Origin: Candidatus Micrarchaeota archaeon
GTDB taxonomy: Archaea > Micrarchaeota > Micrarchaeia > Anstonellales > Bilamarchaeaceae
Assembly (NCBI GenBank): GCA_040754495.1
Contig: JBFMCO010000028.1
Span: forward strand, 1-64,000
DNA length: 64,000 bases
Reading direction: 5' to 3'
The position numbers and the translations under genes were made by a program. Position 1 is the stretch's first letter; each line of letters opens with the position of its first letter. Under the pieces are notes generated by a model that saw nothing but the letters and a program-made list of their open reading frames with translations, was not told where the DNA came from and made no database searches. Shown here in pieces: positions 29,025-61,827 of the stretch.

Positions 29025-29735
29025 CTAGCCGCGCTCGCGCTCCGCCCTGCTTCTCCACCGGACATCTATTCGGCTGATGACATCAAGGTCCGGGGTTTCG
29101 CCCCTGGCGTGCGCGCTGGCGAACTCCCTCTGGATGGCCACGTACGCAGGCCTCGCGGCGGCCATGAACTGGTCCCGGGTAAGCATGACTTCCCTGCCCT
29201 GGGCGTCGGTCGTGGTTATCCGGAAGTCGCTCGGCGCCGCGCTTTCGAGGTAGGTTATGAGCCTGCCGCCCTTCGTCTGGTCCGCGCGCGTCATGGTACC
29301 GCTCCACCTCAGGTCCCGGTTCGCGTCTATGGTATATGTCCGGCCGTCCACCGTGACCTCGTAGGAATGCCTGTGCGTCATGACCGGCGCGGGAGGCGTC
29401 CTGAGGGTGATTTCCGGCGAGATGTTCCGGATGCCGAGGTTCCTGTTGAGAAGCCTGCGGGCCTCGTCGAACCTCTTGTTGAGGCGGTGGTTGAGGATTT
29501 CGTTAAGCCTCGTAGCCACATTCATGAAGTCGCCTTGGGCCATGTAGGGCGGAACTACGACCCCCTCCCTTCCCCTTGCCACCTGGTCGGCGCGGGTGTA
29601 AATCTCACGCGCCTGCAGCGGGGAATATCCGAGCGCCTGCAACTGGGATATAACGGTCCTCTGGACCTCCTGCTGGGTAAGCCCCGTTGTCTCTTCCGCT
29701 CCTCCTCTCCTCCTCTGGGCTGGTGCTCCTGTCAT
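29025..29735 (-). CDS. Arg/Gln-rich hypothetical protein, tandem paralog 1 (MTGAPAQRR)
   Basis: RBS AGGTG; PVMT...YEVTVDGRTY matches the neighbouring paralogs. Confidence 0.75.
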   Translation of the reverse strand: MTGAPAQRRRGGAEETTGLTQQEVQRTVISQLQALGYSPLQAREIYTRADQVARGREGVVVPPYMAQGDFMNVATRLNEILNHRLNKRFDEARRLLNRNLGIRNISPEITLRTPPAPVMTHRHSYEVTVDGRTYTIDANRDLRWSGTMTRADQTKGGRLITYLESAAPSDFRITTTDAQGREVMLTRDQFMAAARPAYVAIQREFASAHARGETPDLDVISRIDVRWRSRAERERG

Positions 29736-29744
29736 AATAACACC

Positions 29745-30401
29745 TCACGGGTTCCTCGTCCGCCTGCCCTGCTGGGGCGCCATGGCGATGCGTATGTCCG
29801 GCCGCTCCACGTACTGGCCGTTCGTGTAGGTCCTTCCGACATAATCGTCGCGGAAGATGTCGAGCCTCTGGTTCGGCGCGCCTGAGTTGAATGCGGCCGA
29901 TTCGGCATCCCTTCCGACGCGCGTAACCTGCGCATACACGACCTGCCCTCCGCTTTCCACGAGCTTGTTGTTGAGGAGGAGGTCGTGGAGGATGGCCCTT
30001 GCGGCAACTTCATCCACCCTGCCGTTCGGCCTTGTCGGGAGGGGGTCCGGAAGGGCGACCTGGTAGGTCCTGTTGCCGAGCGTGACTTCATACACAGTAG
30101 CTTGGGTCATGCGTGGAGCCGGCCTTGGCTGCTGCGTCGGGGCCGGAGGCTGCGCCCTCTGCGGCACGGGCGAGAGCTGGGTGGGCTGCTGGCCGAGCTG
30201 CCGGGCAACCTCCTTCAGGCGCTCGGCTGCCTCCGCAAGGCGCTCGCTCTGCTCCATGAGCCTGCGCGCCTGGCTTGGCGGGATGGGCGAGCGAATCGGC
30301 GACAGGGCGTTTGCGATGTCCATCAGGGCGTCCCTTACCACCCTCAGCGTTCTATCCTGCTCCGTTTCCCGTTCTGGCCTTCTTTGTGCTGGTCCCGTCA
30401 T
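29745..30401 (-). CDS. Arg/Gln-rich hypothetical protein, tandem paralog 2 (MTGPAQRR)
   Basis: RBS AGGTGA; C-terminal region near-identical to paralog 3. Confidence 0.8.
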   Translation of the reverse strand: MTGPAQRRPERETEQDRTLRVVRDALMDIANALSPIRSPIPPSQARRLMEQSERLAEAAERLKEVARQLGQQPTQLSPVPQRAQPPAPTQQPRPAPRMTQATVYEVTLGNRTYQVALPDPLPTRPNGRVDEVAARAILHDLLLNNKLVESGGQVVYAQVTRVGRDAESAAFNSGAPNQRLDIFRDDYVGRTYTNGQYVERPDIRIAMAPQQGRRTRNP

Positions 30402-30410
30402 CAAATCACC

Positions 30411-31025
30411 TTAAGGATTCCTCGTCCGCCTGCCCTGCTGGGGCGCCATGGCGATGCGTATGTCCGGCCGCTCCACGTACTGGCCGTTCGTGTAGGTCCT
30501 TCCGACATAATCGTCGCGGAAGATGTCGAGCCTCTGGTTCGGCGCGCCTGAGTTGAATGCGGCCGATTCGGCATCCCTTCCGACGCGCGTAACCTGCGCA
30601 TACACGGCCTGCCCTCCGCTCTCGACAAGCCTGTTGTTGAGGAGGAGGTCGTGGAGGATGGCCCTTGCGGCCACTTCATCGACCTGGCCGCTGCGGGTGG
30701 TCGGGAGGGCCTGGGGAAGGGCGACCTGGTAGGTCCTGTTCCCGAGGTTGACCTGATAGACGAATGCCTGCGTCATCTGTGGTGCCGGCCTCGGCTGCTG
30801 GACCGGACCGGCCTGCTGGGGCGTCTTCTGCGGCACGGGCGAGGGGCGGCTCAGAAGGTTCTCGATTGTGTTGAGAAGCTCCCGCAGCGCGTCCCTTAAG
30901 CGCTCCAGTACCGGCCTCGGAGGCGGCCTGATTTGCACTTCCTGCCTAAATCTCTCGAGCGCCTCCGGATTGATCGTTATTACATGCTGCTCCGCTTCAG
31001 GTCTTCTTTGTGCGGGTCCAGTCAT
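30411..31025 (-). CDS. Arg/Gln-rich hypothetical protein, tandem paralog 3 (MTGPAQRR)
   Basis: 189-bp identity with paralog 2 at the 3' end; divergent helical N-terminus. Confidence 0.8.
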   Translation of the reverse strand: MTGPAQRRPEAEQHVITINPEALERFRQEVQIRPPPRPVLERLRDALRELLNTIENLLSRPSPVPQKTPQQAGPVQQPRPAPQMTQAFVYQVNLGNRTYQVALPQALPTTRSGQVDEVAARAILHDLLLNNRLVESGGQAVYAQVTRVGRDAESAAFNSGAPNQRLDIFRDDYVGRTYTNGQYVERPDIRIAMAPQQGRRTRNP

Positions 31026-31088
31026 AATATCACACAAAATGTATATTCGAAGAGAAGATTTTTTAACAGGCTTAGTATCAGATATGAT

Positions 31089-60601: not shown

Positions 60602-61153
60602 TCAGCGTTTGCCGCGTATGACCCCTATCACGAATAGCGGCAGTATGTAGACGAGCGCGCAGATGTTGTTCGGGTTAAGCGTGTAGTAGTTCTCAGGGGC
60701 AATCTTCGCGAGGTTCTCGGTCTCGTCATAGCACATGTCCCGCGTCACTTCGTCCCCCAGAAGCGCGGTCCCGAAGTCGTCCCTGCGGGTTATGAAGCCG
60801 CACGTGTCCGAGTTCCTCGTTATCTTTGCGACCTCGAAGTAGCAGTTGTTGGAGACGAGCTCGGCCTTCCTCCGGATGTCCTTCTGCTGGCCGTTCGGGT
60901 CGTATGGCGAGCCGTACGTGTTCCAGATGGCGTCGCAGATGTTGACCGCCTCGCTGCAGGGGCCGAAGGAGCCGGATGGGCGGGAGCCGCACAGGTATGC
61001 CATCGTGATGGCCGCCTCGCTGTAGCACCTCATCTTCTCCGCGTCCCTTGTCAGGGACGGGTCGCTGTTGCACTCCGGCACGGTGCGCAGGCCGAGGGCT
61101 CCCGAGAGGAGCAGGAACGATGAGAACAGCATGAGGACAAGGACTGGTCTCAC
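60602..61153 (-). CDS. Secreted Cys-rich protein with C-terminal membrane anchor
   Basis: GTG start overlapping the tbp stop; signal peptide; repeated RxxC/NNCY/DMCY; C-terminal TM plus RGKR. Confidence 0.7.
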   Translation of the reverse strand: MRPVLVLMLFSSFLLLSGALGLRTVPECNSDPSLTRDAEKMRCYSEAAITMAYLCGSRPSGSFGPCSEAVNICDAIWNTYGSPYDPNGQQKDIRRKAELVSNNCYFEVAKITRNSDTCGFITRRDDFGTALLGDEVTRDMCYDETENLAKIAPENYYTLNPNNICALVYILPLFVIGVIRGKR

Positions 61154-61719
61154 ACCGACCCCTTCTCTGCGTAAGGCTTGAGAAGCGTCTTGGCCTTCGC
61201 GAGCACGATGCGTATCTCCTTCTCGTTCTTGGCCCCGGCGCATATGACCTTGCCGTTCTTGAAGAGCAGGAGCGATGCCTTCGGGTCCTTGAACTTCAGG
61301 ATGGCACCCGGGAACTGCTCGGGCTCGTACTCCACGTCCTTTATCTTGTAGGCGATTTTGTACAGGTCGAGCTCAAGGCCCAGGTTGGCCGAGGCGACGA
61401 TGTTCGTTATCTCTATTTTCGGCTTCTTGGTCTTCGTGATTTTCTTCGCATAAGGCGTGAGCATCTTTATGGTCTTCTGTATCGTCTTCTCTATGAGCTC
61501 CCTCTTCTTGCAGCCCACGCACACGACCTTGCCGTTCTTGAAGAGCAGGAGCGATGCCTTCGGGTCCTTGAACTTCAGGATGGCACCCGGGAACTGCTCG
61601 GGCTCGTACTCTATCTCCGGAATCTTGTTGGCCAGGGCGTAAAGGTCCAGCTCAAGGCCCAGAGAAGCAGAGGCTACCATGTTCGTTATGACGAAATCGG
61701 GTTGTTTAGATTTAGACAA
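61150..61719 (-). CDS. tbp: TATA-box binding protein
   Basis: Two repeats ITN.VASA...EYEPEQFPG...LLFKNGKV.C.G. Confidence 0.97.
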   Translation of the reverse strand: MSKSKQPDFVITNMVASASLGLELDLYALANKIPEIEYEPEQFPGAILKFKDPKASLLLFKNGKVVCVGCKKRELIEKTIQKTIKMLTPYAKKITKTKKPKIEITNIVASANLGLELDLYKIAYKIKDVEYEPEQFPGAILKFKDPKASLLLFKNGKVICAGAKNEKEIRIVLAKAKTLLKPYAEKGSV

Positions 61720-61827
61720 GGAACCACCTGTTAGGCTAGCCTAACATAGATGACCTTTATAAATGAAGCAATTGTTTAAAAACACTTTCCATTATCAATC
61801 CCGTAAAACTAATTACCAGTGATTCAC

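What the first reader, a model, noticed from the sequence alone, without database searches (positions are those of the whole stretch)
61246..61611. TBP with an 87-bp perfectly identical segment in both halves: a near-symmetric TBP
Seen: 61246-61332 equals 61525-61611 at every base, including synonymous sites (EYEPEQFPGAILKFKDPKASLLLFKNGKV), and the two repeats match at about 50 of 61 aligned residues. Known: TBP halves come from an ancient duplication and are normally well diverged. Inference: recent or ongoing intragenic gene conversion homogenises both stirrups and the DNA-binding strands, so promoter orientation would rest on TFB/BRE.
Basis: partly seen in the sequence, partly recalled or inferred. 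Interest (0 to 1): 0.8.

Follow-up and report, generated by a model that had tools for sequence, protein, structure and literature searches.

The report
TBP gene whose halves copy each other
The only TATA-binding-protein gene of this Micrarchaeota archaeon carries an 87-base stretch that is letter-for-letter the same in its two halves, and 40 related genomes show that this stretch is repeatedly copied from one half to the other, so the parts of the protein that grip DNA stay almost perfectly symmetric.

Summary
Window 61246-61332 equals 61525-61611 at all 87 bases, offset 279 nt, inside the genome's only TBP gene (61150-61719, minus strand, 189 aa, two PF00352 lobes). Codon usage alone gives 29 of 29 identical codons with P about 1.5e-10.

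- In 41 distinct Micrarchaeota TBP genes, a lobe's core has the same genome's other lobe as nearest neighbour in 52 of 82 cases. In the rest of the lobe the figure is 1 of 82.
- Third positions of the core differ by 0.20 within a genome and by 0.55 between genomes.
- Against the closest species there are 9 synonymous sites changed in both lobes together and none with the orthologous pattern.
- A distant family has its own 89-nt identical block with a different peptide.

The block encodes S2, the stirrup, S3, S4 and both DNA-kinking phenylalanines.

Several things remain untested. The consequence for promoter orientation was not tested. Whether the two lobes coalesce at the ancient duplication is unresolved. 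Sister families carry only a one-lobe TBP.

No paper reporting TBP inter-lobe conversion was found. This scan has noted the same pattern before on other DNA.

The parts
61150..61719 (-). TBP gene, 189 aa, TTG start, the only TBP gene found in the 1.63-Mb assembly
   Evidence: ORF. PF00352 matches twice, E 2.8e-53. The only two PF00352 matches in G000 lie in this ORF. The closest solved chains are archaeal TBPs 1MP9, 2Z8U, 1PCZ and 1AIS, E 1e-41 to 1e-37.
61450..61695 (-). Lobe 1 (residues 9-90): S1 9-19, H1 26-32, S2 36-38, S3 46-50, S4 55-59, S5 64-70, H2 73-90
   Evidence: AlphaFold2 model m5fb885950639, mean pLDDT 95.2, DSSP elements.
61171..61413 (-). Lobe 2 (residues 103-183): S1' 103-112, H1' 119-125, S2' 129-131, S3' 139-144, S4' 147-152, S5' 157-163, H2' 166-183
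   Evidence: Same model.
61525..61611 (-). Identical block, copy in lobe 1 (residues 37-65: S2, stirrup, S3, S4, first residues of S5; Phe43 and Phe60)
   Evidence: Exact 87-nt identity with 61246-61332. It is bounded on both sides by residue differences conserved in the genus (I36/V129 and V66/I159).
61246..61332 (-). Identical block, copy in lobe 2 (residues 130-158; Phe136 and Phe153)
   Evidence: Concerted evolution of this block in relatives.
61226..61410 (-). Wider lobe-to-lobe direct repeat (185 nt, 85% identical to 61505-61689) whose flanks differ at synonymous sites
   Evidence: the repeat finder family D1; codon-by-codon comparison.
61756..61763 (.). Palindromic TATA-like box TTTATAAA, 36 nt upstream of the TBP start codon, in the divergent intergenic region shared with the L21e-Rpo4-DUF655 genes
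   Evidence: Read from the sequence. Neighbouring genes are named. TATA-like hexamers peak genome-wide at -30 to -26 from start codons. The assignment as the promoter is inferred and not tested.

Best explanation
This is a functional, canonical-fold archaeal TBP. A segment of about 87 nt of each lobe (S2, stirrup, S3, S4) is kept nearly or fully identical by recurrent non-reciprocal copying between the two direct repeats of the same gene, that is, intragenic gene conversion. The likely route is the cell's homologous-recombination machinery, or template switching at a stalled fork, acting on repeats 279 nt apart. Three parts of the mechanism are inferred. (1) Strong purifying selection keeps the peptide alike in both lobes, so the DNA stays similar enough to pair. 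(2) Each conversion restores identity and makes the next one easier. (3) Tracts that spill into the flanks are removed by selection or blocked by mismatches, because the block ends exactly at residues that differ between lobe 1 and lobe 2 in every genus member. What is shown is that the process is old and ongoing across the genus and order, with independent events in separate lineages. The inferred consequence is that the DNA-contacting strands, both pairs of kinking phenylalanines and both stirrups form a true two-fold dyad. Any polarity of the initiation complex would then have to come from TFB/BRE and from the still-differentiated S1, H1, S5 and H2.
For: The repeat is exact at 87 nt, and codon usage gives P = 1.5e-10 for 29 of 29 identical codons. 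In 24 genomes of the genus the core differs by 6.7 nt on average within a genome, against 18.2 (R1-R1), 17.2 (R2-R2) and 17.7 (R1-R2) between genomes, so no orthology signal is left. Third-position divergence in the core is 0.20 within a genome and 0.55 between genomes. In the 16-codon flank, which is just as conserved in protein, it is 0.555 within a genome. At identical residues, identical codons are 550 of 676 in the core and 150 of 318 in the flank. In 41 distinct Micrarchaeota genes the nearest neighbour of a core is the same genome's other lobe in 52 of 82 cases. For the rest of the lobe it is 1 of 82, with 80 of 82 being the orthologous lobe. Random pairing never reached the observed mean in 5000 permutations. 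In the FastTree of the core, 19 of 26 cherries pair the two lobes of one genome, against 1 of 25 for the rest of the lobe. Against the closest species (L004, 88% nt identity) the own gene has 9 synonymous doublet sites, 0 orthologous-pattern sites and 1 other site. Tract ends differ between genomes, with longest runs of 89, 87, 83, 80, 80, 77, 65, 62 nt and so on. A different family (L042) has an 89-nt run encoding its own peptide (AIFKLKEPKSS). In 57 TBPs of other archaea the median run is 14 nt and the maximum 42. Lineage-specific residues sit in both lobes: EPDQ and FDKP in L026, PKSS in L027/L029/L030, PKTS in L032. Both lobes carry the same non-consensus residue in 23 of 73 variant cells in the core, against 30 of 214 in the rest. 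A RadA gene is present in the assembly. Inter-lobe identity is 69% here and 57-72% in 120 close homologs, against a median of 39% and a maximum of 63% in 130 broad representatives.
Against: No reads could be examined, and no independent assembly of the same species was found, so exact identity and within-population conversion are unverified. The genomes span GC 0.31-0.57 in this gene, so part of the within-genome similarity is shared codon usage. The control shows this effect: in the rest of the lobe, within-genome distance is 0.394 against 0.444 for random pairing. That is about five times smaller than the effect in the core (0.108 against 0.227). The relatives are phylogenetically non-independent, so the permutation figures overstate significance. 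In a few genomes the cores are well diverged (L023 22 nt, L029 19 nt, L022 16 nt), so conversion is episodic. The enzymatic route is pure inference.
Confidence: 0.85

Rival explanations
1. Assembly or polishing artefact. The two copies truly differ, and the assembler (bubble popping in a de Bruijn graph) or a polishing step with mis-mapped reads made them identical.
For: The genome is a 72-contig, 80%-complete MAG. Reads could not be examined, and no second assembly of the same species was found. Bubble popping can remove one or two differences between nearby near-identical repeats (general knowledge of assemblers).
Against: The same pattern occurs in dozens of independent MAGs whose contig names differ in style (NODE_..., k141_..., scaffold_...), which suggests different projects and assemblers. 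These have runs of 89, 83, 80, 80, 77, 65 and 62 nt and intermediate states of 1-6 differences. An artefact cannot create the 9 doublet differences from the nearest species, nor the shared lineage-specific residues. At most it could have erased a few residual differences here.
Confidence: 0.04
2. No DNA exchange. Extreme purifying selection on the peptide, together with genome-specific codon preference, makes the two copies use the same codons.
For: The peptide is nearly invariant across the order. TBP is likely highly expressed. GC3 varies strongly between genomes (0.21-0.93), and a small within-genome similarity excess exists even outside the core.
Against: Genome codon usage predicts 14.2 of 29 identical codons (P = 1.5e-10 for 29), and rare codons (GGT, GCA, TCG) are shared. 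The flank ITN[MI]VASA.LGLELDLY is just as conserved in both lobes, yet its third positions differ by 0.555 within a genome. The core has lost all orthology signal, which selection on the protein cannot do.
Confidence: 0.03
3. Residual identity from a young duplication. The two-lobe gene of this order arose by re-duplication of a one-lobe TBP like those of sister families, and the identical block is what is left of that event rather than the product of later conversion.
For: Many families of the same class have a single PF00352 match in an ORF of about 100-140 aa, including genomes more than 95% complete. Their sequence carries the same core motif (EYEPEQFPGAILK.K.P.ASLLLFKNGK). Both lobes share derived states outside the core (LDLY in H1). 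On 54 non-core columns the free ML tree groups both lobes with the one-lobe proteins and is 30.9 lnL better than the canonical lobe-1 | lobe-2 split.
Against: This cannot explain the block by itself. The flanks are saturated at synonymous sites and show clean lobe-1 and lobe-2 orthology across the order, so any duplication predates the order. The core, by contrast, differs between sister species in both lobes together. The canonical split is not rejected (p-AU 0.10), and in the larger quick tree the constrained canonical topology even had the higher likelihood. It remains possible as the origin of the overall lobe similarity, with conversion on top.
Confidence: 0.06

Closest known systems
Canonical archaeal TBP (Sulfolobus acidocaldarius 1MP9, Methanocaldococcus jannaschii 2Z8U, Pyrococcus woesei 1PCZ/1AIS/1D3U)
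   Same: It has two PF00352 lobes and the same length. The predicted element order is S1-H1-S2-S3-S4-S5-H2 in each lobe. Paired phenylalanines sit 17 residues apart in each lobe. Sequence matches have E 1e-41 to 1e-37.
   Different: Inter-lobe identity is 69%, against a median of 39% in a broad sample. M. jannaschii, the most symmetric TBP in Kawakami et al. 2016, has an inter-repeat distance (their dDR) of 0.488 (PMC4910066). The core motif here is GAILKFK...LLLFKNGK in both lobes, in place of GLV.R...L.FSSGK.
Concerted evolution of duplicated prokaryotic sequences by gene conversion (for example equalisation of genome copies in Haloferax volcanii, PMC11276520; rRNA operons and tuf genes, from general knowledge)
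   Same: Copies are more alike within a genome than orthologs are between genomes. Homogenised and non-homogenised segments form a mosaic. Doublet substitutions occur.
   Different: The partners are the two halves of one essential single-copy gene, only 279 nt apart. The converted tract is short (up to about 89 nt) and bounded by residues that keep the halves distinct. The effect is on the symmetry of one protein, not on the identity of paralogs.
Inter-repeat distance (dDR) as a measure of closeness to the ancestral TBP (Kawakami, Adachi, Horikoshi et al., Sci Rep 2016, PMC4910066)
   Same: It deals with the same quantity, the similarity of the two TBP repeats, and finds archaeal TBPs more symmetric than eukaryotic ones.
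   Different: That work treats the repeats as diverging independently. Its text contains none of the words gene conversion, recombination, homogenisation or concerted. Here, low inter-repeat distance is produced secondarily by conversion, so it does not measure ancestry.
One-lobe TBP of other Micrarchaeia families
   Same: It has the same core peptide as both lobes here. It would form a fully symmetric saddle if it dimerises.
   Different: Those genes encode one lobe and are the only PF00352 match in their genomes. The gene here encodes two covalently linked lobes that remain different in S1, H1, S5 and H2. The euryarchaeal monopartite proteins of Brindefalk et al. coexist with a full TBP and are very divergent.

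Membership tests
TATA-binding protein (PF00352, two-lobe TBP) | Two tandem TBP domains in one polypeptide of about 180-190 aa | tested here: met
   Two PF00352 stretches, whole-protein E 2.8e-53, 189 aa. The two matches in the genome search lie in one open frame.
TATA-binding protein (PF00352, two-lobe TBP) | Saddle fold with S1-H1-S2-S3-S4-S5-H2 in each lobe | tested here: met
   AlphaFold2 model with mean pLDDT 95.2 and pTM 0.85; DSSP gives that element order twice. No structural superposition was run.
TATA-binding protein (PF00352, two-lobe TBP) | Two pairs of DNA-kinking phenylalanines | tested here: met
   F43/F60 and F136/F153. F43, F136 and F153 are invariant and F60 invariant or nearly so in alignments A1-A3. 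Their role is taken from PMC4041446 and general knowledge.
TATA-binding protein (PF00352, two-lobe TBP) | Binds TATA DNA and recruits TFB | not testable with these tools
   Two TFB genes are present in the assembly. TATA-like boxes peak at -30 to -26 from start codons. No binding test was made.
Concerted evolution by gene conversion | Repeat copies are more similar within a genome than orthologous copies are between genomes | tested here: met
   6.7 nt against 17-18 nt in the genus. 52 of 82 nearest neighbours are the own other lobe. 19 of 26 cherries pair the two lobes of one genome.
Concerted evolution by gene conversion | Mosaic: adjacent segments of the same repeats keep orthology and saturated silent sites | tested here: met
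   For the rest of the lobe, 80 of 82 nearest neighbours are the orthologous lobe. Flank third-position divergence within a genome is 0.555, against 0.204 in the core.
Concerted evolution by gene conversion | Silent-site identity beyond what codon bias gives | tested here: met
   P = 1.5e-10 from genome codon usage. Fisher's test of core against flank gives p = 5e-5.
Concerted evolution by gene conversion | Substitutions fixed in both copies since the split of sister species (doublets) | tested here: met
   9 doublets and 0 orthologous-pattern sites against L004. 7 doublets against L005, and 9 in the pair L009/L011.
Concerted evolution by gene conversion | Direct observation of conversion (polymorphic tracts in a population, or experimental events) | not testable with these tools
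No same-species contig was found in other collections.

The most novel reading that the evidence does not exclude
In this branch of the DPANN archaea, TBP has escaped the need for asymmetry. The two lobes no longer evolve as independent units. Near-symmetric two-lobe genes (kept so by conversion) and one-lobe genes (presumably homodimers) would then be two states of one evolutionary continuum, one arising from the other by deletion or re-duplication of a lobe. If so, inter-lobe similarity in archaeal TBPs says nothing about closeness to the ancestral TBP, and promoter polarity in these organisms is set entirely outside TBP.
Probability: 0.35. Interest if true: 0.75.

Novelty: new variant of a known kind. 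Interest (0 to 1): 0.6.

Why it matters
TBP is the textbook case of an ancient internal duplication whose halves diverged and took on separate roles. This finding shows a whole archaeal order in which the DNA-binding and stirrup-forming third of each half is repeatedly overwritten by the other half.

Three things follow.
- Phylogenies and 'ancestrality' measures that treat the two repeats as independently diverging (for example dDR, PMC4910066) are unsafe for archaeal TBPs.
- These organisms offer a natural, nearly symmetric TBP, next to relatives with a one-lobe TBP. With them one can test directly whether TBP asymmetry contributes anything to promoter polarity in archaea.
- It is a clean example of short-tract intragenic conversion in an essential single-copy gene. 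The converted block ends exactly where lobe-specific residues begin. Whether selection or mismatches stop it there is inferred, not shown.

Tried and rejected
I did not try to get around it.
- Exact-protein look-up of the window's TBP found no record.
- Two exact-pattern scans of the JGI metagenomes were run. The 40-nt pattern found nothing. The 31-nt pattern found one contig (L137), which is another species (84% nt identity) with 6 differences between its cores. No independent assembly of the same species was obtained.
- The search for related loci with a 37-sequence alignment failed for lack of a conserved stretch. A 20-sequence alignment worked.
- Deep origin of the lobes: a quick 195-lobe tree on non-core columns grouped both lobes of the near-symmetric TBPs with the one-lobe proteins. 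The constrained canonical topology, however, had a higher likelihood than that quick tree, so the quick tree was not trusted. A first IQ-TREE run timed out. With 55 lobes, the canonical split is 30.9 lnL worse than the free tree but not rejected (p-AU 0.10). A strict 'lineage' clade that excludes L056 is rejected (p-AU 0.007) because both lobes of L056 fall inside it. This is left unresolved.
- Lobe-discriminating columns were too few to decide.
- GC-biased conversion: GC3 is 0.63 in the core and 0.59 in the rest (Wilcoxon p = 3e-4). The effect is small, the genomes are not independent and residue composition differs, so it is not claimed.
- Promoter logic: a crude scan of 2810 ORF upstream regions gave a TATA-like peak at -30 to -26, a roughly palindromic TTT[AT]AA core, a weak A-rich signal upstream and a T-rich signal downstream. 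This is too crude to say whether a BRE sets polarity.
- Literature: eight full-text searches found no report of conversion between TBP repeats. Bell et al. 1999 is not held.

Full report
**What is there**

The window holds one ORF at 61150-61719 on the minus strand (189 aa, TTG start preceded by a GGTGG-like motif). It matches Pfam TBP (PF00352) twice, with whole-protein E 2.8e-53. These are the only two PF00352 matches in the assembly, which is 1.63 Mb in 72 contigs and 80% complete. Names attached to close homologs place the organism in the Micrarchaeota. The closest solved structures are archaeal TBPs: 1MP9, 2Z8U, 1PCZ and 1AIS. An AlphaFold2 model has mean pLDDT 95.2 and shows the order S1-H1-S2-S3-S4-S5-H2 twice. 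The gene is divergent from an L21e, Rpo4/Rpb4 and DUF655 cluster, and it lies near the genes for S26e and DUF1805.

**The observation**

Window 61246-61332 and 61525-61611 are identical at 87 of 87 bases with an offset of 279 nt, and the run ends at both sides at a non-synonymous difference. The block encodes residues 37-65 and 130-158. These cover S2, the stirrup loop, S3, S4 and the first residues of S5, and include Phe43/Phe60 and Phe136/Phe153.

With the genome's own codon usage, 14.2 of 29 identical codons are expected, and the probability of 29 of 29 is 1.5e-10. Rare codons (GGT, GCA) are shared by both copies. In the rest of the gene only 18 of 31 identical residues use the same codon. 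The 87-mer occurs nowhere else in the assembly.

**Is it conversion?**

I collected TBP genes with their DNA from 30 relatives of the genus and order and from 80 further genomes across the archaea.

- *Genus distances.* In 24 genomes of the genus, the 87-nt core differs on average by 6.7 nt between the two lobes of one genome. Between genomes it differs by 18.2, 17.2 and 17.7 nt (lobe 1 to lobe 1, lobe 2 to lobe 2, lobe 1 to lobe 2). The core therefore carries no orthology signal.
- *Third positions.* Divergence is 0.20 within a genome and 0.55 between genomes. In the neighbouring 16 codons, whose peptide is just as conserved in both lobes, it is 0.555 within a genome.
- *Nearest neighbours.* In 41 distinct Micrarchaeota genes, the nearest neighbour of a core is the same genome's other lobe in 52 of 82 cases. 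For the rest of the lobe it is 1 of 82, and 80 of 82 are the orthologous lobe of another genome.
- *Tree.* In the tree of the core, 19 of 26 cherries pair the two lobes of one genome. In the tree of the rest of the lobe, 1 of 25 does.
- *Closest species.* Against L004 (88% nt identity), the core shows 9 synonymous sites at which both lobes of each genome agree but the genomes differ. No site shows the orthologous pattern.
- *Tract ends.* Tract ends differ from genome to genome. A different family (L042) has its own 89-nt identical run with a different peptide.
- *Shared residues.* Lineage-specific residues appear in both lobes at once, and this is more frequent in the core than elsewhere.

This is the classical signature of concerted evolution by gene conversion, confined to a short segment of each repeat and recurring in separate lineages.

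**Controls and rivals**

*Codon usage.* Shared codon usage within a genome does produce some similarity. In the non-core part, the within-genome distance is 0.394 against 0.444 for random pairing. The effect in the core is about five times larger (0.108 against 0.227).

Contig names of differing style suggest the relatives come from many projects and assemblers, and they show the same pattern with 0-6 differences. An artefact also cannot produce doublets between species. At most, bubble popping may have erased one or two real differences here.

*Young duplication.* A young duplication cannot by itself explain the block, because the flanks are saturated and orthologous across the order.

**How unusual**

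Inter-lobe identity is 69% here and 57-72% in 120 close homologs. In 130 representatives of the wider family the median is 39% and the maximum 63%. Outside the Micrarchaeota-like group, the longest exact inter-lobe runs have a median of 14 nt and a maximum of 42 nt. So short events may also occur elsewhere, as earlier notes of this scan reported for other genomes.

**Context found on the way**

In a sample of 301 genomes of the phylum, many families of the same class have a single PF00352 match in an ORF of about 100-140 aa, including genomes more than 95% complete. The tally includes two unpublished genomes, G223 and G064, but no specific claim rests on them. Nineteen such one-lobe ORFs were read, and all carry the same core motif as both lobes here. 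One family of the class (f13) has an ordinary archaeal TBP.

Whether the two lobes of the present gene descend from the ancient duplication or from a later lobe loss or re-duplication is unresolved. The free ML tree on 54 non-core columns groups both lobes with the one-lobe proteins, but the canonical split is not rejected (p-AU 0.10).

**Function**

Shown:
- The homogenised block covers the strands and loop that, in solved TBP complexes, contact DNA and TFB (by homology).
- The assembly has two TFB genes and a RadA gene.

Inferred:
- The saddle's underside and both stirrups form a true dyad, so polarity must come from TFB/BRE and from the still-distinct S1, H1, S5 and H2.

That BRE and TFB set the orientation is the accepted view for archaea generally (Bell et al. 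1999, cited in PMC4041446), so this is not a special prediction. My crude promoter scan could not add to it.

**Novelty**

Full-text searches found no report of conversion between the TBP repeats. Kawakami et al. 2016 interpret low inter-repeat distance as closeness to the ancestor and never consider conversion. Brindefalk et al. 2013 do not mention it either. Gene conversion itself is a well-known process, and this scan has noted the same pattern before on other DNA. I therefore rate this a new variant of a known kind, of moderate to good interest.

Noticed in passing
window 29752-29940 and 30418-30606 (also 29966/30632): A second exact direct repeat: 189 nt at offset 666, plus a further 40 nt. 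It forms the C-terminal ends of tandem paralogous ORFs 29745-30404(-) and 30411-31037(-). A third paralog lies at 29025-29735(-). None of the three has a Pfam family. This may be conversion between tandem paralogs or a very recent duplication.
   Followed up: partly
phylum sample; loci L117-L135: Many families of the same class have only a one-lobe TBP ORF (about 85-100 aa of TBP domain). It carries the same core motif as both lobes of the window's TBP. One family (f13, L136) has an ordinary two-lobe archaeal TBP.
   Followed up: partly
window 61720-61818: The divergent intergenic region between tbp and the L21e gene holds a perfectly palindromic TTTATAAA (61756-61763) 36 nt from the tbp start. 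It also holds TTTAAAAA (61775-61782) 37 nt from the L21e start.
   Followed up: no
whole genome G000: TATA-like hexamers peak sharply at -30 to -26 from the first start codon of long ORFs. This suggests that most transcripts are leaderless or have very short leaders.
   Followed up: partly
L079, L082, L085, L056 (other archaea): A few TBPs outside the Micrarchaeota also show excess codon identity or exact inter-lobe runs of 35-42 nt. One example is a Methanomethylicia MAG with 17 identical and 0 synonymous-different codons in the core. Short inter-lobe conversion may therefore be more widespread.
   Followed up: no
window 60602-61243 (-): The ORF downstream of tbp overlaps the tbp 3' end if read from its first ATG. 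An internal Met followed by a hydrophobic stretch suggests a shorter, secreted cysteine-rich protein that starts just after the tbp stop. It has no Pfam family.
   Followed up: no
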